Assembly (NCBI RefSeq): GCF_000002075.1
Contig: NW_004797300.1
Coordinates: forward strand, 1,668,510 to 1,725,604
DNA length: 57,095 bases
Reading direction: 5' to 3'
Source of the DNA: Aplysia californica
Taxonomy: Eukaryota
A program made the translations under genes and the position numbers. Under the pieces are notes generated by a model that worked only from the letters and a program-made list of their open reading frames with translations, was not told where the DNA came from and did not search any database. Positions within the stretch are counted from its first letter, which is position 1. Each line of letters starts with the position of its first letter. Below are positions 176 to 43,468 of this stretch, one piece after another.

Positions 176-437
176 CATTGTAAACCTGGGACAGAGTGTA
201 GAGCTGGTTGCACTTGGTGATCCACGGTTTGTGAGCTACTAGACCCGCTTCCACGGCTTTGCTCTCCAGGGCCGGCTCAATATCGACGGTGTTACGTGGG
301 ACACGAGCTGACACCAGGGGCCTTGCTTTGGCTGAGTTTGCTCCCCTGCCCTTGGCAGACAACTTTCCGCCTGTGCCGTCAGGGTTCGGAAGATTGCTGA
401 AGCAGTCTTTGAGAATGTTCTTGAACAGTGTGTGGTT
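176..437 (-). CDS. Dynein HC exon 48 (entry to AAA2)
   Basis: NHTLFKNILKDCF..WITKCNQLYTLSQVYN G|gtaagg, equivalent to KxxQLYE..VRHG, phase 0-1. Confidence 0.92.
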
Positions 438-3359
438 CTGGGGAGTGGGGAAACAGGAAAGGTGTTTTAGATTCTATTTGTACTCTATGATAGTGCAATG
501 GTAGCTGGAGAAGCTCTTTTAAGCTTTAGCTGTCTAGCTTTGTTTTTCCTTCTTCTGCAGGGGAGTTTCATCATTTGTACAACGCATTTTGGTAATACAA
601 GTTACAGCTTGTCATGAATCATAAGCCATTGTTGATTTGACAATTTTGTGTTTTCTCAATATTCAACTATTCCCTGCAATCAAAATCATGTAATTGTAGG
701 CAAATCAAGACTTATGAACAGTTTTACATACCTTTCACTCTTTGACAAAAGATCTAGTAAATGGAAAAAGCCTTGTCACAACTCAGTAGTCTGTATGATT
801 TGCATCTATCATTAGATAGCAGTTAATGAACTTGGAGACGTGTGGCTTCACCAATGAAGGTTGGGAGGAGGGAGAGGGTATGTATATGATGCCTGAGAGC
901 AGGACTACATTAAATATATGGCAACCAAGAAAGCTGTTAAGAATCTAACTGACATCAACAAGAACAAAAATGCCAGTCAGCTGCTAAAATGAACTAAGCC
1001 CAAGATTAGGAAAATTTTGGACAAAAAATTCAAAGGTCTAGCCTCTTGAATAATCTGATATTCTTACAGCGTTGAAAGAGGAGGTGAAACTTTATTATGC
1101 ATATTTTTACAAACCTCAGCTGTCAGCCTGGGACTGATGATCTCATCTATTGTCTCACAAACCATTGAGTGCTCTTGCTTGCCCTGTGTGGTCAGAGGAT
1201 TTGGTGTGCCTGGTTTTCTGATCACTCCAATTTGACCAGGCTTGTTAGCTAAAACTGAAGTGGGAGTGAGGAGGAAGGGGGTGGGGGTGAGGGGAGTGAT
1301 ATGTGACACAAGCATGCACAAACACTTGAGTGAAAAATGTGACCAATGCAAAAGGCTAAAAAGGGATGAGACAACAAAATTTTAAAGATTTCATTTAATG
1401 AGATCAAAATAAACTGCGTAAAACGGCAACAAAAGGTGGTTTCAAATTTCTTTGACAACAAAAAAAAGCACAAAAAATAAGCTTATCGACTGCATTAGAA
1501 ACTTTCTGACAGAATTTCAATAACTAAAAAATGCAATGAAAAATAATCAGATCAAAGAGCATTCATGAAGAGGGATTTTGAAAGGTTTTACACAATAATT
1601 ACAATTTGAAAAACTATAACTATTTGTGAATTAAGTGATTTTGAAGGTCTAGACACACTGATATCAAAAGCTCAGTGAGAATGATAATAAAATTCATAAA
1701 CTGACCATTCACAGGGGCCTGGGCAGTTCTGTTGGTTGGTGCCTCCGAACTCTGACTCTCTGAGCGTGATGCCTCATCCTTCAGGTCCCTCTGCACCATC
1801 CGGTCATCTCTGTCGCGGCGCCTCTTCTGGGAGGCTCTCTTCAGGACTCCGATCAGAGCCTGAGTGGTGAAGTGGTGGTGGATCTGCTGTGGCCTGCTCA
1901 GGTAAAGCAGTGAGAAACAAGATTGATTGATTGACTTACTTATTCATTGATTGATTATACATGTTCTACACCCCCATCAATATAGTCCAGATAATTTGGA
2001 ATTCGGCTTCTTCTAACCTACCTGTTGGGGCCAACCCAGGCTGAGTGGTATACAACATTCCAGCAGAAAGATAGAGATGCTTGATAAAAGATACTTCCTC
2101 AAGTAAGAATCAAACTCATGTCCCATGAATGCAAAGGTGGAACAGCCCAACCACAATCATTAAATTTCTACTCACTGTCTCTGAAAATTAGCCATTTCGT
2201 ATACTACATTTCCTTGGTAGCGGTTTAGTTTAAACACAGGTAAAAGAAAAAATTGTTATACTATTTAATTAACTTTATATAAATCATATCATGGAGGTTG
2301 CTACCCTCAATAGGACACAAAAGTTGCTACCCTCAACAGGACAAAAAACTCAAACTCACAGCTGATCCTTGACAAGCTCTGAGAGAAGCTTGAGTCTGTT
2401 GGCCAGCACGATGGGAGCCCTGAAGCCCATGGAGGAACACTTGGCCTTGAGAATCATGCCGATGTCCGGCTTCACCATGGAGATGGTTCGGAACGACTCC
2501 AGGATGTCACTCGGCATTTTGGACTTGGGGTAATTTGACGTGTCCATACTCATAAACAGACCCACTGATCGGCGTAATGGAATCTGGGAGGTAGATAAAA
2601 AGGGTTTTAAAGTTAAGTATAGATTAGCATTATTTGATAGAGAAGAAGCATGTTGACATGATAATGATGATTTTGAGCTGGGGGGGGGGGGGGGGGGGGA
2701 GTATAAGACAGACTGAGAGAATTAACATAACACTAAAGTGTAGAAAAAGAAGTGGCTCCCTCCAACCACCCACTTAAGTTAAAAGTATTGACCTTGCCAC
2801 CCCCATCAATAAAAATGACACTCATCTGTCAAAAAATCAGCAAAAACAACATACCTACCGACAGCATCTCCAACAACAACAACAAAATCCCTACTAACAA
2901 AAGCACTGACTCCCACCATCCTCACCAATAGAAACAATATTTCCAACAAGCAACAACAACAACAATCCCACCATCACCATCACAACGACGACCCCACCAC
3001 CATCACCACCACCACCACCACCACCAACAACAGCAACAGCAACAATAACCTCACCATCACTATCAACATCACAACCCAACCATCACCATCACAATAACAA
3101 TCACACCATCACCATTAACAACAACAACCCTACCATCACAATCAACAACAACAACAACAACAACAATTCCACCATCAACAACAACTACAGCATTTCCACC
3201 ATCAACAACAACAACAACACCAGCAACCCCACCACCATCATCATTAACAACAACAACCCCACCATCACCACCACCAACAACAACAACAATTCCACCATCA
3301 ACAACAATTACAGCATTTCCACCATCAACAACAACAACAACAGCAACCCCACCATCCCC

Positions 3360-3391
<32 letters not shown>

Positions 3392-6300
3392 CAAAAACAA
3401 CAACAACAATTCCATCATCATTAACAACAACCCCACCACCACCATCAACAACAACAACAACAACAGCACCAACACCACTAACAACAACATCATACTTCTG
3501 TGCCATCCACAAGGTACATGTAGGACTGTCTGGCCCGAAGAGCCAAGAAGATGGACTGGACATGGTCAAGCAGCACAGACAGCGCATGTTTGCTCAAGCT
3601 CTGGGCTTCATCACAGCAGCCCCAACATCCATCCTGGAAAAAACAAATGTGTCACGACGGGATAGAATCAGGCGCTCGTCAATTTTGGGGTATCTGGAGT
3701 TATTGGTATCATGTTAAAGCTTGTTCATTTGACCATCTTTTGATTTTTTAAAATACACGCTTATCTCCAACAGAAGTCGAGATATTTGGAATTGAAGGAG
3801 CTTGGGGTTGCCTGGTTTCAGAGGTAAAATTAGCGAGAAAATAGCTGCCAAAGTTTGGTGATTTCCAAAGCTTGAAAGTCCTTGGAAGCTGAAAATTTAC
3901 ATTTGTTGTTCCTTTTATCAAAGTTTTGAAATAAAATACACACCGAATTATGTTTTAAAATGGACATAAAAGATGTTGAGGCAAAAACAAATTTTTAAAA
4001 ATTGGCCAAACAGGAGGAAAAATGTCGATATCTTCGATTTCATTATTTTGACGAGCGCCTGATTTCATCACGATGCCTCACAAATATACTATGTCTTGCA
4101 TTTTTTCTTTTTTTTCTCTTTTGCCTTTTATTTTTGGAGAGGAAGGGGTAAAGAGAGTGGAAATGTGTTTATGTGTGTGTGTATGAGTGGGTTTGTGTTG
4201 TGTGTGTGTGGTGGGGTAGGTGTGAGTGTGTATGTATGTTGACTGCTCAATGTAACACTCATGCATACTTCACTTTTCAAAGCGACGTGAGGCGGAGTCT
4301 TNNNNNNNNNNNNNNNNNNNNNNNNNNNNNNNNNNNNNNNNNNNNNNNNNNNNNNNNNNNNNNNNNNNNNNNNNNNNNNNNNNNNNNNNNNNNNNNNNNN
4401 NNNNNNNNNNNNNNNNNNNNNNNNNNNNNNNNNNNNNNNNNNNNNNNNNNNNNNNNNNNNNNNNNNNNNNAAAGAGTGTACGAGTGAGTACTTGTTTGAC
4501 TGAGTGGGGGTGTGTGTGTCTTTTTTTTTTTAAAGGAAGGTGTAAGAGGGAGGTTCTTTTTACTTTGACACGCTGCTTTAATTCTTGGCTTTTTTTCTAA
4601 ATTACTTAAATTAAACACATACCATTGCCATTCCCTGTGCAATTTTTCCAATACTGGTCGGATCATGCTCAGAGGACACTTGGAACATGCCCAAAAAGTT
4701 TCCAAGAATATTGGCCAGACCCTGACAAGAGGGAAGAGAACACATTGTTAATTGTTTGAGCAAACAGAAGGACATCAACACAATAAAGGTCATTTAGTGC
4801 CATGTAAAAGCAAGGCAGGCAGACAAACACAATAGAAAGATAGTACTGAAACAAGACCAGCAAGTGCCCGCTCATATTGACTGTTATGACATGACAAAGT
4901 GATAAGTGTGTAGAATCACTTTTTAAAGATTTTTTTGGGTATTTGCATGATTTCAATTGAATCAAGCAAAAATGAATATCATTTTCCTGTCCGTTTTTCA
5001 TAGTCATAGTTTTTAAATACCCACAATTTTTTACTGAACACTTCATCGATTTTATATTTCTACTGCTAGGTATAGTGTGATAAACTTTTTCACTTTGATT
5101 CTGACCAAAAAAAAATCTAAAAAGTCTAACTCCTATCTCACCTTGATAGTCTCAGTTTTCCCAACTCCAGGGGGTCCCATCAAAGCAGAGCCCATCATCT
5201 GCTTCAGAGCCAGGGACATGGTGACGAAACATTTCTCCGTGGTGGGGGTGGGGCACACACCCGTGTCCGTCCCATAGAACTCTTTCCCGTACTCGTAGTG
5301 GGAGTCCAGGATCCAGAGCCGAGGCAAGGGCTTCTCCTCCACAGCTGCCAGGACAGGAAACAAGTAACATGCATGTATATCTTTTCCTTTAGTTGTAGTA
5401 AGGAAGGTATTCACGGCACTTGCAACAAAGTTAGGTCATATAGGTGAGAAAATTTGAGGTATTACTAGAGATTGATGTACAGAGAAATGAAGGAGAAGAG
5501 ATAAGGACGACAGTTTAGTTTTTTTTATAGGAAAGAAGGAGCTAACCACAGCTAAACACCCGTCAACCACCCACTACCTTTTGTTTTAATTAGTTTCAGT
5601 AAAGAGAAACACATCAGTTGCATCATGCTGGATTACGAAGCAGATGGTCCTAGTGCTCTACATCCACTTGACTCAGTCTTATCGGAGATGGACATTAAAT
5701 TTGGAAGTCCTGCCTCTTAAAAAAACTTAAATTGTTGAGAGGGGCAGTAAACAATGACTATGACAATGACGGAGCATTTTGACACGATAATGCCAACTTG
5801 GTACATAGAATAAGTAAAACAAACAGACAGAAATAAAAGAAAGAAAGCATGAAGGAAGTAAGACCTACCAGTGGCGCCCTCCAGCAGAAAATGTGATACT
5901 TCAACAACTTACAACACTATAACGTGATACTTGACATGAATAGTATTATTGAGAACAGAACTAGAATGATGCCAATGTGTGATAACGTAAATAGATACTC
6001 ACATCTCATAAAGTTAAAAACAAAGCAAGAAATCATTTAACAGGTCTAGGCATAAAAACTAGTACTGAAGGAAAAATATTTAGCACATTGAATGGTACAA
6101 TGTGATACTAGATATGAAATTACATGTTGATATAAAAAATGGTTACAGAAGGTGATAATCAGAGAAAACATCTTAAAATGATACTGTTCTTTCCATTTAA
6201 ATAGAATTCCACAAATTTCTAAGATCTGATTTTTCACTCAAAAGATTCCGCATCAAAGAAATGTGTTAGTTGGTTAACAACAGTTGGATGACCTATCACA

Positions 6301-9300
6301 AAAATATTATAATATGCCATAAACATAAGCAGAAGCAAAAATTACATTTTTAAAAAAAGATAAAAGCAAAAAACATATCTATGAAAAGGATAGATGCATC
6401 AATTCTACATAACAAAGAAAATTTTGAAGATCTTGACATGAGGTGGAGGGAGCATAAGAATGATATTTTGTGTTTCATACAGAAGCAAGAAAACACGTTA
6501 GTTTAAGACAAAAGCTGGACATGAGCTATATTGGCTCAAGAAACAAAGCGGAACAACTTGATGGGATTCAGATGTATATTTCTTTCCAGATACTTGACAA
6601 TATAAGCCCTGCAGAATTCAGTAACAACTGATACAAGTCCCTTTACTTGCTAAAAGAATTTTTTTTAAAGCTTACAGCAGCACAGTATTCACAAATGAAA
6701 GTAACTGTTTGCTATTCAAAATCTGTAAATATTGAAATGTTTTTAAAGATGTTGACAATTGTTGAAGCACTCTACAGAAACAGAAAACTTTACATTTTAA
6801 TGAAGAGAAATATTGATGTTGTCATCAAGTACTTAATATGATGTGCTTTTAGAAGCAGTATTTCATTAAACCTGATGTCACATAACTCTCAATCTCAAAG
6901 AGAAGAAAAGATACAGAAACAGACCTCAATAATTCATTAACCACGAGATTTATTGTGGACAGGATGCATTTTACAACCCTTTACATAAGCTTCACAGAAG
7001 CATAAAGGCATGATAGCAAAGATCACCACAGTAAACACATGCATGGCCTGCCACAAAGTGATAGGGCCAAATGTTTCAAATTGTAGCCAGAAGAAAAGAG
7101 CTTTTGAAAAGCCTTCAAAGTTCAAAATTAAAAGCACCTTTCTATTTCTAAATAGTTCAGTTAAGATCTATTAACACACACAATAATTGGAAAGGAGTGA
7201 GGAGTAGGAAAATTATGGGGACATAAATATTGAAAAAAGTTACATCCTTTACTAGATACAAAGACAAGTAAAAAGCAAAAGCGTTTCATTAAGATGGGAT
7301 ATGATAAAAGTAAGATGTTGTTACAAGAGAGAGAGAGCAGCAACAATCCTTGAAACATTACACGGAAAACATGTGAACCAGAAAGCAGTACCAACTTGAT
7401 GTTTTATATTGAGCTATGATTACAAACATTTTTGCTTTCCATAACATTTTGGCACAAGAAAGGTACATCACAAGGAAAGTCCTTTAATCATTACAGCAGC
7501 TGAGCTTAAACTGTGCAAAATTAAGATGCTATGGCTTAAGTCGTCTTCCTATGCCAAGTGTAATATGTCACATATTCTAATGATGCAGATGCAACTTTCC
7601 AATACAGATTGATTGTGTTGCAAAACTGTTACTTTCACTACTTCATACCATGGAGTATGCCAAATCATTGTATCTTCAGAGAGCAATTTTACGCGATATT
7701 TTAAAAGTTAGATACATTGGCATCTGTAAAGCATTGATTAGGCTCTTTGCCATGCCTCAGAAGATGTAAGTTGGATTAAAAATAATTGGAAGAAATATCA
7801 TCTAGTATCCCCGTCTTTCTGCTTGAGGGGGAGGGGGAGGGGGGGGGGGATAGTTTGATACACAGCCTTCGTTGACTCAGAAACAGGCAATCAAAGCAGT
7901 CCACTTCCCAAAAAATTTAAATTGTATCAAAAAGGGAAGGAAATAAAATGGGTAAAATCAATTATATAGGCCTACAACCGATGAAATTTCCCTCACATAC
8001 ATTTACATGAAATGTATTGAAATCTACACGAGAAATCTGGGAAGGATATGATGTATGAAGGAGGGAATATACAAAGGCAAACAGCTTTGAAGAAAAACAA
8101 AGAGTTAAAAAGCATGATGTTTGTAGAGCAGGAATGAAAAAATATACAACATGGAAAGGATAAGCAAAATAGGGATTTAGAATTTACCCTCATCGTCCTC
8201 ATCTTCATCATCTGTAGATGCTATAGGGAAACCCCACAATTCACAGTTTAGATATTGTTTCATATATGAACATGGACATATATTATTACTTTTTCTATAA
8301 TAATTGCAAAGGGCTCTGTGACTATACAATTTATATTCAGAAGTAAAAATGTAAAAGCAGCTGATTATTTCATCCAATCAGTGTGCTGTTGACAAAAACA
8401 ATTAAACCAAAGCTGGACGAAATCATTGGTTACCGCACATTTAGTGATCAACTTTTTTAATATGGTAAAGAGAAATGATCCCACTAGTGATCTAAACACA
8501 ATTTTAAAAGGGAAAGTTCGAATACTTCAGAAATCCTATTTTGTCACGTAGCTGTTCCTTTACATACCTCGAAGAGTAATGAGCTGGCTGTTTTACTGAA
8601 GCAAGTACATAAAGATAGCTAACCACCCCAGGTTCCTGGTTTGAAAGCAATAATAGTAAAAAAAAAAAAAATTTTCTTTTCACATCACTTGCCATAAAGA
8701 ATTTATTTGTGCCTATTTGGGAACACAACTTCAGAATTTTAAAAAATCGACAAATAGAAATATGTGTCACGCCACGGTGAAATCCGGCACATGTTAAATT
8801 TGGGGCATATAGAGTTAAGGTATAATCTGAAAGCCTGTTCATTTTCCCTGCTCTTTAAGAAAAAACACCCATCTATTTTGAATAAAAGTGGAGATATTTG
8901 TAATTGAAAGAGGTGGGAGTCATCTGGTGTCAGACGTAAAATTAGCCAGAAAAAGGCTTTCTTTTTAACTGTGGAGGTATCAAAATGGGTGATATGATTA
9001 AAAAACAACCAAATGCTAGTTAGATACCTCCTAGTATCACTTACACCATTCCGCAATAATAAAAACCAGACTGATTATCAGCAAATAACAGCTCAAGTTC
9101 CCACTTGATTCCACTTCTTTTTACGTTACCCCTTAAAATATAAAAGTAAAACTTGTCTGAACTACACACAAACGACTATGTACAAAGATATATCTCCACT
9201 GTAAAAGTAGGAGTCAAGATCTTAGCGCAACTACTGATGCTCTTCCGCCATTGTTATCTTGTAACAAAAAACTGCTGCGTTGCTGTTTTTTTTGTTGTCT

Positions 9301-10734
9301 TTTTTTAAGATATTATATTTGCTGTAGATGTTGAACAGTTGGTGTAACTGTTGTCATCATTGCTGTGCTGCTGTTGTCATTGTTACTGTTGTTGTTTTAT
9401 TGCTGTCAATTGAATTGTGCAGTACACCACAGGACTGTGCTTTGGCATTTCTCCCATCTTTCCCAACAACACAAAGACAACACAACAAATAACGCTGAGC
9501 TCACCTGTCTGACTTCTCTCCCCACCTGCAGAGCCAGGGATTTGTTGCACTGTGGGAGAAAGAAGAGCCATAATATTATTATCTTTTTCCCTCTGCTTCT
9601 TACTGGTTGGAAGAAAGAGAAACACATCAACACAAAATGATCACCTGGTTCCTTGAAAAAGGAAGATTGACAGAAACAACAGAGGCAGAGAAGTGAAAAA
9701 GACCTACCACTGGGACCTCACAACCACGTGCACCAGTGCTTCTGAGAGCAGGGAGAAACGAACCCGAAGGTCGGCGAAATAACTTTGTGGTTCAGTTATC
9801 AAAGCATATAAACTAAGAGATGTATACTAAAAGTTTAAGAGGAACTGGCTGACACTGTCAACTTCATACCAAGACTAGAACAAAAATTCAGAAAATTTCA
9901 ACAGTGAGGTTGAATGTGTAGATCCGACTGGAATAAAAAAAACCCAAAAAACCCCAACACTTTTAGCTTCAAGCTTGGGAATCAAGGCTCTGAGACTTAA
10001 ATATCTTAAGTGTTGGAGAGTTTGCCACCAAAAGCACCACAGAGGTCAACCTCTAAAAAGAAGAGGTAGGTACAGCGCAGAAAATGTAGAAAGTAAAAGA
10101 GAAAAATGATGTAGCAGACCTTGTTTATCACAAAGCAGTTTAACACAAAATTCCTGTAAGCACGAAAGGCTTTCAAATTTCCATTTTATTCTGTTCTTCA
10201 TTTTGTGCACTGCAACTTCCCTTAACATGAAACCTGCACAAAACCAAGAAATCCTCCAGTTCCATGAAGCTTGTGTTATCTGAGTTTGGCTGTAACTTCA
10301 GAAAAAATGAAGCAACAAACCTGAAGCGGGATCAGGCTGCAGGTAACATCTGACACTCCGGCGCCACTCAAAGTCGGTCGTCTCTCTCAGTTTCCTCTGG
10401 CACATGTTCTCCATGATGTCCTTCAGGTATGTGGATTGCTGAGAGAAAGGTTCGGCAAAGTTTTATTCAACAACGTCTTATCTCTTATTAAAAAGTTGTT
10501 ATTTGTTAGTTATATGGAAAAATGTGCAACGGCAGCTCACAACCGTGAAAGTTGAGGGTCATTACACGTCAACCTCTGAGTCAGAGATGACACCTCCAGG
10601 TATCCAGGTATTTATTAGTTGGTACAATGATGGTCCTGCTTCACAAGAAAAAAAATGATGAAAATACAGTAAAACTGGGTGCATTAACTCAGAAAAGTGG
10701 ACTGTAATAACAAGTAGAAGAAGAATCTTCAGAA

Positions 10735-10783
<49 letters not shown>

Positions 10784-13416
10784 AAAAGAGAGAATGGATG
10801 GAAGGAAGAAGGAGCAAGAGTGAGAAATTTTTGCTCTTCTATATTGTGGAAACAAACGTAAGACTGAAATCTATTCAAGGTCAAGAAAACAAAACAAATA
10901 TAGACCATTAATTAAAACCCTCCCCCAACTTACAGTGATCATTGCTTCTATGCGGACTCTGTGCATGGGCAGCATGGGTTCATCAGAGCTCCTCCACATG
11001 CCGCGCAGCAAGACAGTGACCAGTTTGCCAGTGGCCATGCTGTACTTGCGCACCGCGCCGTGCAGTGCCTTCCTGTCATACTTAATCTCAGCGATAGCAG
11101 CCTCACACTCAGCGCTCCAGTGGTACAACAAGCCCAGACGGCACACTTGGGACGGGTACTAAAAACAAGCACACAAAAGTATACCTGATTATTTCCTTTT
11201 GACAAGTAATATTGTAGTGCACATTATTATTTCTATTCAACAAAGAAACTGCAATGAACATCATTTACCCCTTAAGTAAATAAATCGGGGTATTCATAAT
11301 TATTCTCCTTTAAGAAAGAAACTCAGGTATACATTATTTTTTTTCTCTATAACAAATATATTGTCTATTTTCTGACCAAGTAACGTTATGTTGACCAACC
11401 ATTATTATTTTACTCTCCTTTAAACTGAAAATGATTGATAAAAGAGTTCACTACTACCTGCCTCCACACTAATATGTTATGCGTCACAGCATGGTGGAAT
11501 CATGTGCTCGATTGTAAGTTTTTGGGCACATGGAGTTATGGGTATAATCTTAAAGCTTGTTCATTTGTCTTGCTTTTAATTTTTTTTTAAATACCCATCT
11601 ATCATGAATAGACGTAGAACAATTTGTGATTGAAGGAGGTGGGCATCACCAAGTATCTGAACTAAACTTTTTGGTGGTTCCCAAAGCGTAACTCCTTGGA
11701 AACTACTGATTTACATTTTTTGTGCCTTTGATCAATGTTTTTCAGTAAAATTCATACAGAAATGTTTTTACATGGACATAACAGTTGTTAAGTAAGACTC
11801 CTAACAAAATAAAAAAAAGAGATGCCCAATGAAGGAAAATGTCAAGGTCTCAGATTTTATTATTTTAATGAGCACCTGATATCAAAACAATGCCACACAA
11901 ATGTTAAAACAAATCTTAGTCATTGCCTGCCACATGAAGCCACCTTAACAAGACAGCCTTGTTCCTTACCTTGAGTGCCCACTCCTCCAGACCTACTCCA
12001 TTGTTGCAGTCTGAAATGATGGCTTGATTGAGCTGATGTAGCGTGTCCCCAACCGAGTCCCTAAGTTTGCCTAGCCAGACCTCCACACCGTCACTCAGCG
12101 TCACCTGAAAATACAAGGAAATTTTTTTTAAGTTGTTCTTTTTTCTGTTCCCTCTCCGACATATTTTTTTTTGAGTGCCAGGTGCTGTTTCGTGGAAATA
12201 AATAATTAAATTTGCACAGCAATGAAAGTATCTAAATGCTTGAAAAAGAATTTGTCTTTTCTTAGTGTTTGTTTTATATTATATAAAGAGATGCAACGTG
12301 AACCAACAATAGTCATTCAAGGGTAAGTGATTTGGTGTTGGTTATTCTTGTTGTGGTTGTTAGCCTATGTTGTTGTTGTTGCTCAACTGTAGTTAACAGC
12401 AGGTCACCATGGTAACAGCAACATTTCTATAAGAACATATAAAGATAAAAGCAAGACTGAAAAAAAGATATGAGAGGGATAGACAGAAAGAAAAGCAAAT
12501 CAAGAGAAAAAGGAAGATACAGAGCTACACAATAAAGTAGGACTAAAAAGTCTCTCCCCCAAAATTATCCACTATTGAAACGCAAATAGGTCAAAGCTGG
12601 TAAGAAATGCGAATATATCAGGCTTCATATTCGACTTTAAAAATCAAATAGGCCTACACACCAAGAGGGAAGAAAAGGTAAAAACAGATGGTACAATTGA
12701 ATGCCACTGCATGGTAAAAATAATTGCTAACTTTTTTTTCCAATTGATGGATACCTAATTTTCTTTAAAGACAAAAAGTGGTTTTACGTAAACTCGAAAA
12801 GTATTCAGACTTTTGCATACTCATATGAGGATCATCTTTTCACATAATAAAAGGGTTTTTTCGATTAAAGACTCCACGTGTAGACGCACCTTGTCTATGA
12901 GGGAGAGAACTTCCCCATCGGCGCTGTGTACGGCAGTGGCGTCCATGACGATGACATCGTCTACCAGACCCTCAGAGGGAAGCATAGTGGGGCCATGTTG
13001 CATCACACTCGGATTGATATTCTGTCGCAGATATTGAAAAGTATCATTCTGAGATAAGGTCAAAAGATTTTATAATGTGAGATGAAATGAGAGAGGAAAT
13101 ATTAACAAATTTCCTTCGAAATTGAACTGACGAGAGAAGTACGAATCGGGAGTAATTATATGATTTCAGACTGAACAGGATATGAGAAAAAATAAGATGG
13201 GGTTCTATGAGATAGATGAAAAGAGAGATATGGGATGGGTTGGGAAGGAATGCAATGAGACAAACTGAGATTTGATGGGATGGGATGATGATGTGAGTGG
13301 ATATGAGTTAAGATTTCATCTTAACCATTGACAATTTAGTTATAAAGGCACCGATTATCTATGTTTGGTGCTGCTTTAGCCAAAGAGTTGGGATGTCATA
13401 GTGGTTGAAGTCTTAT

Positions 13417-13449
<33 letters not shown>

Positions 13450-26000: not shown

Positions 26001-29000
26001 GCGTCTGCACATGCTGCTCCAGGCGAGACTTGACATTACCTCGGTATGACACCACACTGTCCAGTTTTTTCTGATGGGCACCAAAGAAAAAATGTTCATC
26101 AATGTCTTTTCTTTTTACCAAGAGTGAAAAATACAAATTGTGACTTGATCGCATTTACACACGAAAGAATAACAAATGAAGCAATACGTGTATTGTTAAC
26201 CTATTTTTTGGGGGGTATTCATTCAGTAGTGTCTTTATTCATGAATGTATTCATTTTTTCTGTCACTTATTCTTTCATCAATTCCTTTCTTTACTCATTC
26301 ACTTAACATTCTTGCTTTAGTTTGCATACAGTTTCATTCATCCATCTGCGTTGTCATCTTTTAAAAAAATATAGTAATGCAGTTTTTACAATTTCACAGG
26401 AGAGTCGGAGAGCCAAAAACTGAATATTGTTACCAAGAAAACAAACTCTTTGCAAACATCCCAAATTAATCTATTTTGATAATAACTTCCTTATTATCTT
26501 TAAGGCAACTATTGTTTTATTGGTAACCACATTCAGATTCTTTGGCTTTCCTGTATAATTGTAAAAAACATTGTACTTTTTATGACTGCAGTGAAGCTGT
26601 TCATACATTTAAGTCTTTACAGTTCCATGCATTAGGAACAGAATAAAACAGATCACCATGAACAAACAAATCTTTATAATTTGAATCTAAGGTTCTGCTT
26701 CTAAACCGCAAACTTTAAAGAAACTAACCTTTGCTTCTTCATGCAGAACAGAAGCAAACTTTGTCTTCCAAGCCATGGAGAACCCATGTAGGCTGTCCTT
26801 GATTGGGTCTGAGAACAGGTTGACTGGACCGACTGGCAGCTGGGCTGGAATACCCAGAACCTTCTTCTCAAGGTATAGGTAACGCTCCACCTGATAATGA
26901 GCACAAAATCATTGCACTGTATGCTTCCCTGGAAGTTGAGATTGTTTCAGAACGCTATCAGGTCTGCTGGGGTAATTGAATAGATTGCCAAGCACATAGA
27001 GGTTGCTGTTGAGCGGGAATTTGCACTATATAAATGCTATTTATTATTGTTATTATTAAATTTACCGGTTTGCAAACTGAACTCAAAACAATAACAATGA
27101 CAGATGTGTGCATAAATAACAAGGTTTTTGAGCATACAGAATTATAGGGGGAGTCTCATTAGGTGTGAGTAAGATGACAAAAACACATTTTTCATTTCGG
27201 CAAATACAGACTTCAACATAAGTTATGGACCACCTTGACAGACAGCCCTGACTTTAAAAAAACCGAAAAAAAGACAGCAAGGAATGATTCAACATTTTTT
27301 GCTCAGAATTGGTTGCCAAAGCGTACTGCAAAGCTCCCTAAACGGGCAAAACTACCACGTGCAGCACGGAAATCCTCAAGGAATTTTAGCCAAATTTGCA
27401 GGGTTTTTTTTACTAGTGTGTGACACCCGGGACATTCCTCAGTTAAAATTTCTGGTGCACGTCATAAACGGACGTACGGTCTCAAACAGTGCTCACTTTG
27501 GTGGCAATATAAGCCGCCGCTTGTGGAAAATCCTGTATTGCATCAACATGCCACCAAGACGAAAGCTGAGAGACTTTGATCGTGCCAGAGCTATGGCATG
27601 GCTGCAGGATGGAGTTGGAGCCCGAGAAGTTGCCAGAAGGCTTGCAGTGTCACACACTGTTATTGTCTGCCTGAGACAGCGCCATCGAGCCACTGAATCA
27701 GTCCAAGAATGCCCATGTGCTGGTCGACCCAAGAAGACCACTCAGAGTGTTTGCAAGTGGTCCTTAACTTTTCTTGAAGTTTGTAGCTAGCTTGACGTAA
27801 AGCACAAGCAAAGATTGGATATCTGCACTTTCCAAAGTGAATGAAAGTAAAGATTTGAAGTGGGTGCGAGTTAGGATTTGAACTGCGTGAGAGTAAGACA
27901 TAGAAGAATCAAGCAGATTTAAAAGTAATTCTTCACAAAACAAAGTATGTACATTACACAACCTGGCCAAATTATGAAGAGATGGGTTCTCATTTCTACC
28001 TACTTTTAACACTGAAATACAATTTTTCTCACAACGTACTTTTTTTTTCAACTCTCAAATAAGTGAAAGCTTTGTATAGTTTTCGACTTTTAGAAAATAT
28101 TTTAAACATAAAACTCAGAGACTAAAGGACCATTACTTCTCTTTTGATTGCCACAACACCCGGATCAGCATCGATGAATTCACTGAAGTTGCCGTGCATG
28201 TCATCCCTCCACAAGAAGTTGTAATAGCTGAAGTGGAACAGATGACGATGGACCAAGCCTCCAAGGTCTGAGAAAACAATGGAAAAGGTAATAATTGTTT
28301 CCCATAGCTATGAACACATCANNNNNNNNNNNNNNNNNNNNNNNNNNNNNNNNNNNNNNNNNNNNNNNNNNNNNNNNNNNNNNNNNNNNNNNNNNNNNNN
28401 NNNNNNNNNNNNNNNNNNNNNNNNNNNNNNNNNNNNNNNNNNNNNNNNNNNNNNNNNNNNNNNNNNNNNNNNNNNNNNNNNNNNNNNNNNNNNNNNNNNN
28501 NNNNNNNNNNNNNNNNNNNNNNNNNNNNNNNNNNNNNNNNNNNNNNNNNNNNNNNNNNNNNNNNNNNNNNNNNNNNNNNNNNNNNNNNNNNNNNNNNNNN
28601 NNNNNNNNNNTAAGCACATCCATTCATGAATAAATATATACAATAAACACATGCATTCATAACGTCTCTCGTTTACTAATGTTAAAAGGACCGCCAGAAA
28701 TATCAAATAACAGGATTTTGCACTTTTATGCCTCACAAACCTTAAACTTGTTTATGTTTCACGCGCAAAAAAAAATTTGACTTTATGGTGTATTTCCAAC
28801 TTTATTCACTGATTTTACCCTGTTCCCTTCTACACACAATAGTGCACGACCATAGTATTATAGCAATTGACAAATGAAAGTTAGGGTGCATGGATCCTTT
28901 AGGCTCTGAGGGTTCAGGGCTCAAAAGGTTAAAATGTTCATTCAGAACAATAGGTATCACAGATCTCCTCACCATCAATGACACTGGTTAGCTGTGAGCA

Positions 29001-30055
29001 GAGCTCTTGAACATTGCAGTCGCTGCTGATCATCCCATAGAACGACTCATCCCCAGACTCACTCATCCAGGAGATCTCTGAAGTGAGAACAAAACAATAC
29101 AAATAAAATTTAAGGTTGCCCAAGGGGGAGAGGCACAGCGAAATAATAAGGCTCCTTTAAGGTGCAGTGGAAAAGAAGAAAAAAACTGTCAGGAACAAGA
29201 AAAGGAAAGAAAAGAAATATATAACCTATTGGTAGTGCACTCCAATCAGCAGGATCAAACTTGAAAAGGAAGTTTACCGGTACATCTATAAGTGTACACA
29301 CTACCCTCCCCACCCCTCCCTTCCATTCACACATTAAAAAAATTAATGGAACTGGGAAATATATTTGCTTTTGTTCAATTTTGTGTTTTCGAACTTTGAA
29401 ACAACAGGCATACATTCTTTTAATGAAAAATTACAAACATGTTATGCTGCACTCAATACAATTTACATAATTTATGATAAGGCTTGTTGGGACTCTGCCC
29501 GTCAGGGTAACCCCACACTATGAATGACTCAACATCTCAGCAGACAGACAGAGATAATCAGCAAAATAACATCCCTACATGAGAATTGAACTCACTCCTT
29601 CTGCATGCAATGGCAAAAGCAAAACCATTAGGCTTCAGCCACCTCCCAGGCAAAATTAAAAATTAATTTCCACCAAACTGATAATGCTAAATGTGTCCCG
29701 CACACTCATATGACCTTATGCAGTTGTATGCACTGTAAAACATTTACAAAAAAAAAAAAAAAAGATCGACACCAGAGACACCAATATCTAGATTCTTTGC
29801 AGCAAATGGAAGCAAGAGAACTTTTCATCGACCAATACATTCACAATGGCTAAACATAAAGATGTAATACAATTATTGTAATAAGAAACTTGCCACTGTT
29901 AGCTTCCAGGATGGCGTTGGTGACGTCAGAGATTGACTTCTGCACAACATCCAGTGTTGGCTCAACAATGATGTTGGGAATGGAGAATTTCACATTCACT
30001 TCAAACCTGCACATAAGATGAACGAAAGTTGTGGTAATTTTAATTATACTTATTA

Positions 30056-30088
<33 letters not shown>

Positions 30089-32388
30089 ATGTCATTATTA
30101 TTGTGGTTGTTGTCATTTTTCTTATTATCAACATTTAAAAAAATATTGTTACCATCATTATTATGGTGGCAGGCGCTGTCCTTTTTCTGATTTTAATTTG
30201 ACAGAGTCATGGGTATTTCCTTCGTTTAGCTGTTGCTTTATGAATCATGCCAGCTGGGCTCTTCAGTTTTCATTTTCTGTGGTAGCGTAAAGAGTCCAGG
30301 GGAGATGACTTTTGCTTCTATTAATGGAAAGTGGCCATTTGTACAGGTAACTGTCTTACACATGTGGCCATTAGAGCAAGTTCAACTGTATAAAAAAAAC
30401 TCACTGCAAAGGCGTGCTGAGCACTGCATTCTCCCCAGGTGACCAGGTCATTTCAGACAAGTTGGTCATGTTGCTGGCAGGTCGGTCCGATGTCTGAGAC
30501 TGTCTGCCGCCACTCTGAGCCGAGTTGACACGACTGTTGCCGGCACTGCCACTGTAAAATACAAAGAACCACCCAGAAAAGTTTAGACCACAAAAAGAGA
30601 AAGGAAGTTGAGTGGTAGTTCATTACAAATCAGCATAACAGCTTTATTTTTCCAGGAGCTGATCAATAAAACGATAATATCAAAGGTACCAACAGACAAA
30701 CAAAAGAGTGGGAACAAATCATCAATGAAACCAAAGGAATCAAACACAACAAATCACTGAGACCATGAGCTCAAATTAGAAATTTGTACCTCAGGATACA
30801 GGACCTGAAGGTGTTCTTTAAAAGAATCTTTAGAAGCCCCTAGGTAAAAGAACTAATTAATAATGTACTTATCATTTGAATACACATGAATAAAAAATTA
30901 ACCTTCCAACCTCAAGAACTACATTTATGCTAGATATGAAAATGCAGGTATAACCTGAAATAATCCTTTTTTTTTTTGTCTGGGAGAACCAGAACACAAC
31001 CACTGAAATTACTTCTGATACATACATATGGTCAAAATAGTTGAAAACGAATAGTTCATTCAAATTCAGCACTATCCGAAAAAGAAAATTGAAGCAGATA
31101 ACAGCTAAATTTGATATGCAAAAAGCTTGCTTTATTTCATTTCTCTACAGCTTTGATGACAAAAATTGTAAACATAATTAGTCAGTTATGTTTGGAACAC
31201 TGTGCACTCTTAAGAACAGAGAAGAAAGATGACAGTCATTACATATTATCATGTGCAAGCTTAAACTCATCATACAAGAGAACTGTTCCAAAATGCTGAG
31301 AATATTTCCAAATATTACAGGATCAGCCACAAACAACATCAAATTTTTATAAAGCATAAATAAACAACCTTCTTTAAGTAGAAATATGCACTATCAAAAT
31401 GCAGTCTATTCTTATTATTATTACTNNNNNNNNNNNNNNNNNNNNNNNNNNNNNNNNNNNNNNNNNNNNNNNNNNNNNNNNNNNNNNNNNNNNNNNNNNN
31501 NNNNNNNNNNNNNNNNNNNNNNNNNNNNNNNNNNNNNNNNNNNNNNNNNNNNNNNNNNNNTATTATTATTATATTTATGTTATCGTTATTGTATTATTAT
31601 TGTATTATTACAAGCAGAATTATTATTGCAATTACTATTATTATTACTGCAATTATTACTATTGTTATTGCAATTATTATCGCTAATACTATTATTATTA
31701 TTATTACTATTATTATTATTATTATCGTTATTATCATTATCATCCTCATCATCCTTAACTCGGGAAATAGACCCACCTGAAATAGTTGCCATAGGCAGCC
31801 CGCGGCGACGGGGAGCTGCACTCACTGTGGGACTCGTGGTTGGACACAGGGGTGAAGGCACGGACAACCTCACCCGTACAGCCGGCCGCCTCTGCCAGAC
31901 AGGCTAGGGACTTGGTGGTGGCCCCCAGCACAGCTTGGAACACCTGGTCTTTGAAGTGAGCTGAGGGCAGAGGGTAAAGGGCAGAGCTCTGATTAAAGTG
32001 AGTGTTAAGGCAGTTTACTATAAGCTCACTGACCATGTTTTCTGTACTCCGCAACCGCAATGATTAGGTTGCGGGAAAAGGGGATAGAGAAGGAAAAAGG
32101 AAGAAAGGAATGATTATTTGGAAGGGAAAGACATCGCCATAATCAGACAGCCACCGGAACAATCAGTATGGATACCTTGCGGGCTTTGGTGCTGGGGGGA
32201 ACAGAGCACTTATGGACCTGTCCCATGTGCAATGACGTTGTTGCCCATGACAGGTAATACAGGTTTTCTGTACTGCTAACCCTTAGCTCGCTCTTTCTTT
32301 TTCTTTTCACCCCCACCTCCACCTCCCCTCCTCTCTCTGTGTCTTTGTTTCTTCCTTTCACTTTTTTTTTCTTTCTCACTCTTTCATT

Positions 32389-32461
<73 letters not shown>

Positions 32462-35400
32462 CTCTCTCTCTTTCTCCTCTCTCAAACACTCTCTCCCCTT
32501 TCCATTCTACCAGCATTTAATCAAATNNNNNNNNNNNNNNNNNNNNNNNNNNNNNNNNNNNNNNNNNNNNNNNNNNNNNNNNNNNNNNNNNNNNNNNNNN
32601 NNNNNNNNNNNNNNNNNNNNNNNNNNNNNNNNNNNNNNNNNNNNNNNNNNNNNNNNNNNNNNNNNNNNNNNNNNNNNNNNNNNNNNNNNNNNNNNNNNNN
32701 NNNNNNNNNNNNNNNNNNNNNCTCAACAACATAAGCTTCCTCCATGGCGGCCAGTTGCTTCTCCTTCTCATGCTCATCATCATCCAGCATCAGCTGCAGC
32801 TTCTTCTCCTTCAAGGCCTGCTTGCTGTCAGGCTGAGCAAACAAATGGTTTTCAAAATCAAAAAGTGTACTCCTCAAAAGTCATATTTACGTACATCATA
32901 CAGCACCTCTGAGGGTCTGAGTGTGAGTAAAGAAAAGCACACCCACGCAACAACAGTCATTTAGTTTAGTACTGAGAATAAAAACAAGACAGACAGAAAT
33001 AAAAGACGGAAAGTGACCCACTCCAACCATTCCAGAATACCTCTGCAGCTTATATTCATACGACTTTATCTGAAAACAGCCTCTAATTAATCCAAAAGAC
33101 ATGTCTCATTTTTGTTGAGGTATAGGGGGAAATTATTAGTTTCTCTTCCATATTTTCAGGAGCAAAGACAACAAACAAAATACTCCTTTTTGCTAGGTCT
33201 TTACATTGAGTTCCAAGTATTAGTTCACCACGAGGCAGTAAAAAGGAACAGATAAGAGTAGCAGTAAGAGCAAAAAAGAGTAGGAGAAACAGAACACCCC
33301 AAAGACTGCACGCTACAAGATGGTTCACTCCCTGAAAAAAAAGCACCTTTGAAAATAAACTAATGGAAGTAAATAGATATTGCCAACAGTTGTGATGAAG
33401 AATTCATTTTAATTGATTATTAATTCCCAAACATAATTTTTTCGCAATACATTTACTCCCACAACTACTCTTTGTACACAAAATGCATGCACATGCCTTC
33501 CTAAGAAGAGCAATCTACATGCAATTACTACAGATGTCGACTGTGGCACTACATTAAGAATGATTCTTTGGAATCATGAATAGAAAATGGATCCATCTTG
33601 CGTATTTAATAATCTATGAGCACCAAAGAATCACTCATTCAATATGAAAAACATCACTTGAGCAGTCTGGTGAGGACAACAGTAAAGCTCATTCAGGCAA
33701 GATGATAGAATGTTTCTTATAAATAAACAGCAATTATTTGGGCAGAGAGTAAAGCAATTCAGGCTAATGTTGAAAATACTTCCCCCTTCAACAATATTCT
33801 TCTCAAAATATTGCCTTTTCCAACATTCAGATACATTGACACTACTTTCCAAGTTCATGAAACAGAGCATCTTTTTCTTTTGTAAAAACAGCCTCATTAG
33901 GTTGTGTATTATTACCTTTATTTAAAATTACAACAAATCTCTCATTTTAAACACTCACATACTACCGTTAAGCATATTTGACAAAACTGTAACAATTTGA
34001 GTGAGAAATGCACCCACCGATAAATAACCCAAGCTTGACTTAATTGTTACTCGTAGTCTGAAACTTTTGAATGCTTGCCTTAGCTGGTATTACAGGATGA
34101 AATAAAGTTTCTAGCTGCACAAAATAAAACTTGCATTCAAAGTGCTGCAGTAAGATTTCCTTATCATAAAATTGTTCCTTCCGATCCACCCTGACATTGC
34201 GGACTGCACTATCTCACAATTGATAATTTAGACAATTCATTTGGGGCCCATGCACCAAAATCAATTTCACAAAAATTTGACATGACATAGGAGTATTTAT
34301 CTTTTTTGAGAAAAACTACGTCCACACCGATATTTTAAGATAGAGCTATCCTTCATATCAAAGTCACTGCACTTTTTTCTTCAGATTGAATATTTGGGGG
34401 TATTTTTAGTTCACTGTCAGGTAAAATCTAAAAAAACAATATATTTTAAGTGCTGTTGGACAAATAGGCCTACATAATATGTTCAAAAGAGTGGAAATGA
34501 TTATAATAATATTGATGTAGCTATGGGACAAATATTTCTAACACATCTTCACTTAGTGAATTTTTTCTTGAGGGGAAAAAGGAGGATATTACCAAGAGTA
34601 ACATTTTGCAAAGTTTAACACTCATTTCCACAGAAGGTCATACATATAAGATTAAAACACATTAAGAAAATATAAAGCATACCAGATATATTCTAGAGCT
34701 AAACAAAACTACAAAAGAAAAGAAAACGTTAAAAAATTACACACTGAAAGTGCTAAATTTAGTCATTTTCTCTTAAGCACGTAGTCGTAGGTTTCACTTT
34801 AATGAAGAACTAGAACATTTTTCAGAGTGAGAAACAGAGTAGTCAAGAGTAGTCATTTGCTTGTTTGGTTTTTTTTCTCACAATTTCATGTAAAAAATTT
34901 TTAAAAATCTAAGGCAAAACAACAACTAAAACACAGCCTCATTATCAAAGATGTTTTAATTAAATTTTTTTTTCAATGGAATTTATTATTTCCTTTGTTC
35001 TAGAAAAAAGATCAGATAAGTGTAAAGCAATCATAGAAAAATGTAAGTTTCTCTTATTATCAAATTTCAACCTTTCATTTAAAGAACAAAGAACTATCAT
35101 TCTGATATTATTGTGAACGTATACCTTAAAAAAAGGGAGCCGCCCGGAGACTTTAACAACATTCAAGAGAGATTTTTTCTGAGAGCATGCACTCGTGTAT
35201 GTACAAGTGAGAACACACATGTGGGCTAGCGTGTACTTACATGTGTTAGCGTGTATGTGCGAGAGTGTGCGTGTGTGTGTGCGTGTGTATGTGTGTGTAT
35301 GCGTGTGAGTGAATGAGCTTGTGTGTGTGCAAATGTGTGTGTCTCTGTGTGTGTAAGTGTGTGGGTATGTGCGAGATCATGTGTGTGTGTGTTTGTGGGT

Positions 35401-37643
35401 GCGTGTGTGAGTGTGTTTTTGTGTGTGTATGTGTGCAAATGTGTGTGTCTCTGTGTGTGTAAGTGTGTGGGTATGTGTGAGATCATGTGTGTGTNNNNNN
35501 NNNNNNNNNNNNNNNNNNNNNNNNNNNNNNNNNNNNNNNNNNNNNNNNNNNNNNNNNNNNNNNNNNNNNNNNNNNNNNNNNNNNNNNNNNNNNNNNNNNN
35601 NNNNNNNNNNNNNNNNNNNNNNNNNNNNNNNNNTGTGCCTCAGCAGAAATGCTTACGATTGTAAATGCAATTTACGAGTAAGAAAGGAGAGATTCAAAAC
35701 CAATGACAGACTTTTTTTAAAGAAGTGCATAAAGGCTACCTATAATACATCTCCTTACCTGGCTAAAAAGATGTCTTTTCATTTTGATTTGATTTATAAA
35801 TTAGCACAATTTCACTTTCTCACCTCTAACACCAACAGTTTCAAAAGCATTTATATTCTGCCCAAAATGATACCTTTACTTAACACTGAAAAATCTGACA
35901 GACAATCTATCCACTATTTTTTAAGGGTGGGAGTAAAACTGGTAATTGTATGAGTTAAACGCTCATTTCAACATAATAATAGTAAAGTGCATAGAGCATT
36001 CTGCTGAGCTTAGATATGTCCTATATAAAGCAATTATCAGTATTACTTGTCAGTGCAGCAGACCTTTTAAAGTAAAGAATTCTGTACCACAGTCAGTCCT
36101 TACATAACATTCTTATAGAGAATGGGAAGAATAAGAATAGGCACGTTCATGAGCACCTGATGAAGTGTAGAGTCTGTTTCACCAAACGTAAAAAAAAGTG
36201 CAGGTATAACACAATCATACAAATGAAGTCAAACACAATTAATCCACCGCACAACAAAATGGCAACCAGCTGAAACAATAACTGTGCAAAATGTCGAATG
36301 AAATATACCTTCTCTGCCCACAAAATGATTACTGGATGAACCACAGTTAAATAATACTATATACTTCCTAGGTCTGCCCAGCTTTGTAAGTAGGAGAACA
36401 ATAAATGACCTTAAGAATCTCAAGACTGACATTCACTCATCAAGACACTTTAAAAAAAAGTAAAACAGAAATTTAAAATCTTGCTATTTGTAGCATACTC
36501 TCATTGTTTAAAAGATCAGACACTAAAAGAAATAATGATCATTGGACACATGAAAGAGTCCCATTTATGCAAAGCTTAACATTCCTGTCATTCTACTATA
36601 TTCACATCTGGAAAACAAATATTTAAGTCAGAAACATTTTACCATGACTATTCTCTATAAGAAATTAGTCAATAAACACCATAATAGCATCTATCTCCAC
36701 ACAACACGACAGCACATTGAATCATTAACACCTCTTTAGATATTGGTGCCATCTACGGTCCAGTAATTGGAACAAAGAAAATGGCTACACTCTAAGACAT
36801 AGTTGGTCACTGACAGATTTTGGATTTCACTGGAACATCTGTAACATTGAAGAAAAGGTTTCACACTGAGGCAGGAAGATCAGATATTCACCAGCTAAAA
36901 CAGAAGCTATAACAATGCTGACAGGACGATACCATTTATGAAGGAAAAGTGATGAGCTCAAAAAAACAAGTAGCAACTCAAATCAGTGGCACAATATTGC
37001 TTCATTCACTTCACGAAAGGTGCATGTATATTCAAAATGGTAGACAGCATACTGATTTAGATGTGTGAGTTCTGTCCGTAGCTTTCTGTCGAATGTTTCT
37101 CAGCTTAGACATGATAGTGGAGCGCGCAAGAGCAACACTTTTGAGGGTGATTGTGTACTCCTGTAAACAAAGTAAAGGTTCACAAGCATTTCACAACCAC
37201 AGTTAGGCATTAGTAATGAATTATACAGAGATGACAGGTATAAAGACAAATCAGTTGGAGTAAAATCTTAAAGGGCTGATAAGTATGAGTTTTCACTGTG
37301 ACCCTTTGGTGTACAGAAAACTAGAATGTAAGTTTTACTTCCTATTAAACATTACTCTATTCATTTCAGAGGCTATGCTGATCATTACATTTCCCTTCTG
37401 TTAACATGACAATGTTCAGAAATTCCTTTGTTAAAGAGCATAGTAAGTGTGAAAAGAAAGATATTGTAGAAATTAATTTTCAGGGAACTTAATCCAAGCT
37501 ATAGTCTAAACAAAGTAAGAACAAAACTACAATGTCAGAGATTAAAACATTCCGTACGCTGAATTCATGAAATAAAGTAAATACATGCTGGCCCAGCCAT
37601 TATGAGACTTGTTTCCCCAGCTTCTTAACCTTCAAACTTCCCC

Positions 37644-37693
<50 letters not shown>

Positions 37694-43409: not shown

Positions 43410-43468
<59 letters not shown>

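What the first reader, a model, noticed from the sequence alone, without database searches (positions are those of the whole stretch)
1706..5344. Intact DNAH5/8-like dynein with a degenerate AAA1 catalytic site: candidate pseudo-motor
Seen: spliced AAA1 reads ..GTDTGVCPTPTTEKC..GPPGVGKTETIK..GCWGCCDEAQSL..GLFMSMDTSNYPKSKMP..LPQQIHHHFTTQALIGVL. Established: AAA1 is the main hydrolytic site and is nearly invariant in dyneins (RLVITPLTDRC, GPAGTGKTE, WxCFDEFNR, TMNPGYAGR with sensor-I Asn, HYDFGLR with sensor-II Arg). Here Walker A Lys and Walker B DE survive, but sensor I is Asp, sensor II is Gln, and FNR, GYAGR and the adenine-binding N-loop are replaced. No stop or frameshift occurs over about 2,650 codons and splice sites are clean, so this does not look like a decaying pseudogene. 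Inference: a paralogue that may bind nucleotide but hydrolyse poorly, acting as a structural, brake or regulatory outer-arm heavy chain. This parallels DNHD1, but the tail here is gamma-type.
Basis: partly seen in the sequence, partly recalled or inferred. Interest (0 to 1): 0.72.

Follow-up and report, generated by a model that had tools for sequence, protein, structure and literature searches.

The report
Sea-slug non-motile dynein (DNAHX) gene
This is an intact, spliced gastropod copy of DNAHX, an already described animal family of dynein proteins whose main ATP-burning site has decayed, so it likely serves as a locked structural partner in cilia or sperm tails rather than as a motor.

Summary
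The minus-strand exons at 1706-5344 splice to an AAA1 that keeps Walker A Lys and Walker B Asp-Glu but has Asp at sensor I and Gln at sensor II. The AAA2 arginine finger is Ser, and the AAA4 P-loop Lys is gone. The gene is whole (about 100 exons, about 5,300 aa, no stop), and the three junctions tested are spliced in 3 of 4 runs. It is not new. It is the orthologue of DNAHX (sea urchin XP_041462850; 50.6% identity over the full length), which a 2025 cryo-EM preprint describes as non-motile with ATP trapped in AAA1. Across the family, 0 of 71 members have all five AAA1 catalytic residues, against 53 of 55 canonical dyneins. The substitutions vary, so this is relaxed constraint, not a shared N>D/R>Q change. 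Additions here: DNAHX is very probably Kollmar's 2016 class 12, has a choanoflagellate relative, and persists in internal fertilisers. The genome also has a class-13-like gene with a beta-type tail and a dead-looking AAA1, a candidate for the unidentified partner. The scan noted an octopus DNAHX before.

The parts
176..56671 (-). 5' half of a DNAHX / class-12-type dynein heavy chain gene: 48 modelled exons plus 2 small ones, codons 1-2627 of about 5,300. It continues beyond the window start for about 63 kb (50 more exons, loci L002-L008) to a normal stop
56147..56671 (-). First coding exon (N-terminus MDERHWW..., family-specific start of the gamma-type tail)
22671..55019 (-). Tail exons (DHC_N1 and coiled-coil region); closest to gamma-type outer-arm tails, with low-complexity insertions
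8188..21821 (-). Linker (DHC_N2) and pre-AAA1 exons, including small exons 20852-20829, 9549-9505 and 8220-8188
5142..5344 (-). AAA1 N-loop (GVCPTPT for LVITPLT) and Walker A GPPGVGKT (5154-5177): Lys and Thr kept, Val in place of the conserved Thr as in sea urchin DNAHX V2221
4623..4721 (-). AAA1 exon between Walker A and Walker B
3496..3633 (-). AAA1 Walker B, CCDEAQS for CFDEFNR (Asp-Glu at 3607-3612 kept)
2360..2583 (-). AAA1 sensor I loop, SMDTSNYPKSK for TMNPGYAGR (Asp codon 2542-2544)
1706..1893 (-). AAA1 small domain: sensor II HHHFTTQ for HYDFGLR (Gln codon 1860-1862) and start of a family-typical insertion
1115..1254 (-).
176..437 (-). End of AAA1S and start of AAA2

Best explanation
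The window holds the intact, spliced gastropod orthologue of DNAHX (very probably Kollmar's class-12 dynein), whose AAA1 site lacks three of five catalytic residues and so likely binds ATP without turning it over, leaving a predicted non-motile head that would serve as a locked structural partner of a second heavy chain. Shown here: gene integrity, splicing, orthology, loss of sensor I Asn, sensor II Arg, the AAA2 arginine finger and the AAA4 P-loop Lys, plus insertions in AAA4S, both stalk helices and the microtubule-binding domain. Taken from the sea urchin cryo-EM preprint: ATP retained in AAA1, only the pre-powerstroke state seen, pairing with another heavy chain. Inferred: the same holds in this animal; the gamma-type tail pairs with a beta-type tail and outer-arm accessory chains; the locked head holds its partner in an inhibited (phi) state for ciliary assembly or transport.
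For: Orthology: P0069 is XP_041462850; 50.6% identity over 5,394 columns, against 25-35% in partial stretches to canonical gamma chains; one clade of animal members, SH-aLRT 99 under LG+C20. Catalytic set K/E/N/R/R (roles from PMC4879348, passages) complete in 0 of 71 family members, 40 of 42 gamma-type, 13 of 13 others; this gene keeps 2 of 5. Binding residues persist: Walker A Lys 70 of 72, Thr 67 of 72, Walker B Asp 63 of 73; Walker B Glu only 35 of 73. AAA1L identity is 37-41% between family pairs, like the tail, but 85-88% between gamma-type pairs. AAA2 site kept (Lys 77 of 77). About 53-residue AAA4S insert and stalk/MTBD inserts at the places the preprint names. Spliced contigs of 5.4-15.0 kb in 3 studies. 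Three canonical gamma-type genes exist elsewhere in the genome (C380, C1, C58), so a motor role is covered.
Against: No ATPase or gliding assay exists in what I read; the non-motile claim rests on cryo-EM states in one species, in a preprint. This gene keeps Walker A Lys and Walker B Glu, and AAA3 motifs are largely kept (Lys 74 of 77). The predicted stalk of a snail orthologue still has a dynein MTBD fold (Z 14.4, rmsd 2.6 A over 129 of 130 residues of 6kio), though 17 of the 27 alignment rows were canonical chains and may bias the model. Tissue is unknown; the one labelled polyA run gave 0 reads and is no test. The phi-template role is the preprint's model, not a result.
Confidence: 0.82

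Rival explanations
1. It is a resident outer-arm substitute: the gamma-type tail docks it at outer-arm sites of some axonemes, where a locked head acts as a spacer or brake, rather than as an assembly or transport template. This shares the non-motile premise and differs only in role.
For: Tail scores 380-504 bits against 7 of 9 gamma-type tails (166 and 237 for the other two) and 41-162 against beta-type tails; the sea urchin protein was salt-extracted from mature sperm axonemes; MTBD fold predicted to persist; Kollmar proposes outer-arm positions for class 12.
Against: No family member among the 60 of 84 PDB matches shown, which include 96-nm axonemal repeats, although most of those species lack the gene; stalk predicted folded back in the preprint.
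Confidence: 0.3
2. It is a slow but working motor or ATPase, using the kept Walker B Glu in AAA1 or the AAA3 site.
For: Walker A Lys/Thr and Walker B Asp-Glu kept in this gene; arginine finger is Arg in 43 and Lys in 23 of 77 relatives; AAA3 P-loop kept.
Against: This gene has Ser at the finger, Gln at sensor II and Asp at sensor I; Walker B Glu is lost in 38 of 73 relatives; residues vary freely rather than converging on a new chemistry; ATP not hydrolysed in the sea urchin map.
Confidence: 0.08
3. It is a decaying pseudogene or an assembly artefact.
For: Lost catalytic residues; RefSeq predicts it as two separate proteins (1,268 and 3,872-3,894 aa).
Against: 5,295 codons with no stop; spliced contigs up to 15,041 nt; full-length orthologues from placozoan to frogs at about 40% identity and snails at 67-78%.
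Confidence: 0.01

Closest known systems
DNAHX / dynein-X (bioRxiv 10.1101/2025.01.18.633724, PMC11785096; type sequence XP_041462850)
   Same: Orthologue: 50.6% identity over the full length, same length class, Walker A Thr>Val, replaced sensor I loop, lost sensor II Arg, AAA4S insert, CC1, CC2, pre-H3 and H5 inserts.
   Different: More eroded AAA1 than the sea urchin protein: sensor I Asp (urchin Asn), sensor II Gln (Lys), arginine finger Ser (Arg). The sea urchin has a tandem second copy of the sensor II helix that molluscs lack.
Class-12 dynein heavy chain, DHC12 (Kollmar 2016, PMC5100056)
   Same: Class-3 (gamma)-like tail, highly unusual stalk, 4,800-6,000 residues, holozoan range including a choanoflagellate; one of three divergent heavy chains in this genome, the other two fitting classes 11 and 13.
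   Different: No class-12 reference sequence could be obtained, so identity rests on features and elimination. Kollmar saw no typical MTBD or coiled coil, whereas the model here keeps both, interrupted by inserts. He did not analyse ATP sites.
DNAH5 / DNAH8 (class 3, outer-arm gamma-type)
   Same: Closest canonical class in tail and motor; databases name the gene after it.
   Different: 23-35% identity by domain; canonical AAA1, AAA4 P-loop and stalk are not kept; three true class-3 genes lie elsewhere in the genome.
DNHD1 (class 11)
   Same: Degenerate AAA1 in an intact heavy chain; proposed as a functional analogue by the preprint.
   Different: Separate lineage by the preprint's account; the genome has another divergent gene (G000:C177) that resembles it (resemblance recalled, no DNHD1 reference in hand).

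Membership tests
DNAHX | Groups with XP_041462850 apart from DNAH5/8 | tested here: met
   (animal members one clade, SH-aLRT 99); 50.6% full-length identity
DNAHX | Reciprocal best hit against the sea urchin proteome | tested here: inconclusive
   Proteome not available. In the other direction, DNAHX AAA1 matches this gene at 47.7% over 218 aa and canonical loci at 30-43%; C177 gives 49% over only 53 aa; only held loci were compared
DNAHX | Unusual length (over 5,000 aa) | tested here: met
   5,295 aa model, about 5,340 with small exons
DNAHX | [quoted passage not shown] | tested here: met
DNAHX | Pre-sensor II insert in AAA4S | tested here: met
   About 53 extra residues before YVGPTTY, absent from canonical rows; its fold was not modelled
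DNAHX | Insertions in CC1, CC2 and MTBD (pre-H3, H5) | tested here: met
   Stalk 578 aa against 436-447; low-confidence loops at these places in the model of the Biomphalaria orthologue
DNAHX | ATP-locked pre-powerstroke state; heterodimer with a second heavy chain | not testable with these tools
   Reported for sea urchin only
Class-12 dynein (Kollmar 2016) | N-terminal tail like class 3 | tested here: met
Class-12 dynein (Kollmar 2016) | Extremely unusual stalk without a typical MTBD or coiled coil | tested here: met
   PF12777 absent from 77 of 77 family rows (some partial) and present in 26 of 26 others; below cut-off in the sea urchin chain, 117 bits in a canonical chain. Nuance: fold predicted to persist
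Class-12 dynein (Kollmar 2016) | Range Holozoa (choanoflagellates and animals) | tested here: met
   Salpingoeca infusionum P0166 and sponge P0171 group with the family, SH-aLRT 99, both on long branches
Class-12 dynein (Kollmar 2016) | Motor domain clusters with curated DHC12 sequences | not testable with these tools
   Supplementary trees are cut and hold no sequences
DNAH5/DNAH8 (class 3) | Complete AAA1 catalytic set, canonical stalk, nesting among class-3 chains | tested here: not met
   AU test rejects animal family plus animal class 3 as one clade, p 5e-9, with a long-branch caveat
Class-13 dynein (Kollmar 2016) | Class-4-like tail and low-complexity C-terminal extension | tested here: not met
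   Tail is class-3-like; protein ends at the usual C-sequence; the G000:C90 gene shows these features instead

The most novel reading that the evidence does not exclude
DNAHX is Kollmar's class 12, older than animals, and its unidentified partner in dynein-X is the class-13 heavy chain: together a 'shadow' outer dynein arm (gamma-type tail plus beta-type tail) in which both AAA1 sites are dead. The class-13-like gene in this genome has a beta-type tail, a canonical-looking microtubule-binding domain (fitting the straight second stalk in the map) and Walker B Asn-Asn.
Probability: 0.3. Interest if true: 0.65.

Novelty: new member of a known kind. Interest (0 to 1): 0.3.

Why it matters
The gene itself is one more member of a family described in 2025, mislabelled 'DNAH5' and split in two in RefSeq. 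What it adds is testable. (1) It links two literatures that I did not find linked (searches; the preprint has 0 mentions of DHC12, class-12 or DHC13). (2) It offers a named candidate for the unidentified second chain of dynein-X, checkable in existing cryo-EM and mass-spectrometry data. (3) The family persists in internal fertilisers and has a choanoflagellate relative, which weakens the preprint's external-fertilisation and animal-origin readings. (4) A mollusc version missing sensor I, sensor II and the arginine finger is a clean natural test of an ATP-locked dynein.

Tried and rejected
An intronic open frame at 2156-2016 reads FDSYLR, like a canonical sensor II. Rejected as an alternative exon: no acceptor AG in front of it, skipped in 3 of 3 spliced contigs, absent from 5 of 5 RefSeq isoforms covering the region. 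Loss of an arginine finger for AAA3 as a family trait: rejected, canonical gamma chains lack it too. Sequence search of the PDB with the MTBD exon alone: 0 matches, too short to inform. No family structure among the 60 of 84 PDB matches shown. No listed holder run is on record as RNA; the labelled polyA run gave 0 reads; neither is evidence. dN/dS was not computed: no orthologous DNA was in hand; four variants in contigs are 3 synonymous and 1 non-synonymous, too few. No complex prediction was run: the candidate partner is held only as short exons. No stored protein is an orthologue of the C90 gene, so co-occurrence of classes 12 and 13 across taxa is untested.
Full report
Observation. The window lies at G000:C30:1668510-1725604. 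With orthologues as guides I chose splice sites junction by junction and obtained 98 exons and 5,295 codons with one terminal stop; 48 exons (2,627 codons) lie in the window and 50 in the next 63 kb. All 97 acceptors are AG; donors are GT 95, GC 1 and one masked. Five RefSeq-predicted isoforms labelled 'dynein heavy chain 5, axonemal [Aplysia californica]' match the model from residue 1449 with 0 mismatches and add four small exons or extensions; the N-terminal part is a separate 1,268-aa prediction.

Expression. Of 4 runs laid on 150-2620, three (three studies; RNA status guessed or unrecorded) each gave one contig of 5.4, 11.4 or 15.0 kb that skips exactly the three modelled introns. The fourth, a labelled polyA raw-read run, gave 0 reads and is no test. 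The length of the 15,041-nt contig fits one transcript from exon 1 to near the 3' end (inference from its coordinates), which argues against the RefSeq split.

Family. Three protein searches and one representative search returned orthologues from gastropods, bivalves, cephalopods, an annelid, nemerteans, hemichordates, echinoderms, amphioxus, tunicates, coelacanth, bichir, sturgeon, gar, bowfin, amphibians, cnidarians and Trichoplax; look-up added a sponge and the choanoflagellate Salpingoeca infusionum. No amniote, teleost, arthropod or nematode member was among the named hits, but only 1,320 candidates were scored. A motor-domain tree of 156 rows (5 of 161 dropped for low coverage) gives an 87-row clade, sister to all gamma-type chains; IQ-TREE on 40 and 30 rows agrees. 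Forcing the animal members together with animal DNAH5/8 is rejected (AU p 5e-9), but long branches may drive this. The choanoflagellate and sponge rows are flagged as long.

Nucleotide sites. Roles of Walker A/B, sensor I Asn, sensor II Arg and the AAA2 arginine finger are from PMC4879348 (passages) and 10.1101/2020.09.22.308700 (passages). Counts use 77 of the 87 rows (10 isoform or same-species rows dropped; gaps not counted). AAA1: Walker A Lys 70 of 72, Thr 67 of 72, Walker B Asp 63 of 73, Glu 35 of 73 (Asp 32), sensor I Asn 31 of 76, sensor II Arg 0 of 77, arginine finger Arg 43 of 77 (Lys 23, Ser 7, this gene Ser). Nine echinoderm and hemichordate rows carry a tandem second sensor II helix and my column took the second copy; the first copy has Lys in 6, Ser in 2, Gln in 1, never Arg. 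All five catalytic residues: 0 of 71 family, 40 of 42 gamma-type, 13 of 13 others. AAA2 is kept (Lys 77 of 77, Glu 77 of 77, finger from AAA3 75 of 77), AAA3 largely kept, AAA4 P-loop Lys lost in 76 of 76 (Lys or Arg in 45 of 45 gamma-type). By domain, AAA1L identity is 37-41% in three family pairs, the same as the tail (35-45%), whereas gamma-type pairs keep 85-88% against 39-46% in the tail. The pattern is kept binding with relaxed catalysis.

Stalk. The stalk spans 578 residues against 436-447, with acidic inserts in both helices and two inserts in the MTBD. An AlphaFold model of the Biomphalaria orthologue's stalk (mean pLDDT 77.9, 27 rows of which 17 canonical) matches dynein stalks and isolated MTBDs (Z 14.4, rmsd 2.6 A, 129 aligned; Z 13.8, rmsd 2.3 A, 147 aligned), with the inserts as low-confidence loops. 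Whether it binds microtubules is open.

What is known. PMC11785096 (read: parts 1-4 and 7 of 7, that is abstract, results, discussion, part of the methods and legends; figures and supplements not seen) identifies XP_041462850 in sea urchin sperm dyneins by cryo-EM and names it DNAHX. It reports ATP in AAA1, no post-powerstroke particles, the AAA4S insert on the C-terminal cap, a folded-back stalk by prediction, orthologues from sponges to frogs including a modelled gastropod, and a phi-shaped dimer with an unidentified chain. That accession is my P0069; its V2221, S2322 and K2393 are where the paper says, and it is 50.6% identical to this protein end to end. The finding is therefore a DNAHX orthologue. 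PMC5100056 (read: abstract, parts 1, 2, 3 and 5 of 9, passages, supplement parts 1, 2, 4 and 5 of 5 with the tree files cut) defines class 12 as holozoan, with a class-3-like tail and an extremely unusual stalk. It proposes a class-12/class-13 outer-arm-like heterodimer and states that ATP sites were not analysed. The preprint cites it but never names these classes. Unseen supplements of the preprint could bear on this.

The rest of the genome. AAA1-family and tail-family searches show three canonical gamma-type genes (C380, C1, C58; 75-87% in AAA1 to Hydra and chicken chains), two beta-type genes (C161, C4), and two other divergent genes. C90 scores higher with beta-type than gamma-type chains (tail 155-284 against 77-119 bits, motor 336-529 against 73-105), has Glu/Lys/Ser-rich open frames after the C-sequence and an MTBD exon 37% identical to DNAH9. 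Its AAA1 exons read GPREGTKFE, CFNNISQ and YGWSVQS (junctions read by eye). That fits class 13 and a second dead AAA1. C177 keeps a Walker A GPNGTGKTE but has LFDDTDR at Walker B, as the preprint describes for DNHD1. Three divergent chains, three divergent animal classes: this gene takes class 12 by features and by elimination.

Against the novel reading. The preprint's mass spectrometry lists DNAH6 and DNAH7, not a class-13 chain, and several chains fitted its map equally. The C90 gene is only partly modelled, and no binding test was possible. On fertilisation: land and freshwater snails, sea slugs, octopods, salamanders, a caecilian and the coelacanth keep the gene and fertilise internally (recalled), so external fertilisation does not explain its range.

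Verdict. Real feature, sound interpretation, already described family. An earlier scan note reached the same family for an octopus gene; I saw it after my own identification. Interest 0.3; the partner hypothesis would merit 0.65 if true (probability about 0.3).

Noticed in passing
G000:C90:566000-673000 (L058-L065, L050-L054), + strand: Divergent dynein with a beta-type tail, low-complexity C-terminal extension, canonical-looking MTBD and degenerate AAA1 (Walker B Asn-Asn, sensor II Gln); fits Kollmar's class 13 and is a candidate partner.
   Followed up: partly
G000:C177:1134000-1170000 (L047-L049, L053), + strand: Third divergent dynein, Walker A kept, Walker B LFDDTDR; probably DNHD1 / class 11 (no reference sequence in hand).
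   Followed up: partly
window 29894-26070: RefSeq predictions split the gene here into a 1,268-aa and a 3,872-3,894-aa protein, both named DNAH5; orthologues and contig length point to one gene.
   Followed up: partly
proteins P0011, P0068-P0075, P0284: Echinoderm and one hemichordate DNAHX carry a tandem duplicate of the AAA1 sensor II helix; the first copy has Lys, Ser or Gln at the sensor position.
   Followed up: partly
proteins P0162 (Pavlovales), P0137, P0131, P0244, P0163, P0242: Long-branch non-animal or unnamed chains branch next to the family; P0162 keeps a canonical AAA1, P0137 has lost only Walker B Glu. They may be early stages of the same decay or long-branch artefacts.
   Followed up: partly
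window 27239-27787, + strand: Open frame resembling the N-terminal DNA-binding part of a Tc1/mariner transposase inside an intron (resemblance recalled, not tested).
   Followed up: no
L008:750-2300, - strand: Broken piggyBac-like transposase frames about 5 kb past the gene's stop (resemblance recalled, not tested).
   Followed up: no
window 25660-25707, - strand: Degraded partial copy of the 3' end of the exon at 26070-25895, with a stop, in the following intron.
   Followed up: no
window 2016-2156, - strand: Intronic open frame containing FDSYLR, a chance look-alike of canonical sensor II; not spliced in.
   Followed up: yes
window 29894: One GC-AG intron in the tail region.
   Followed up: no
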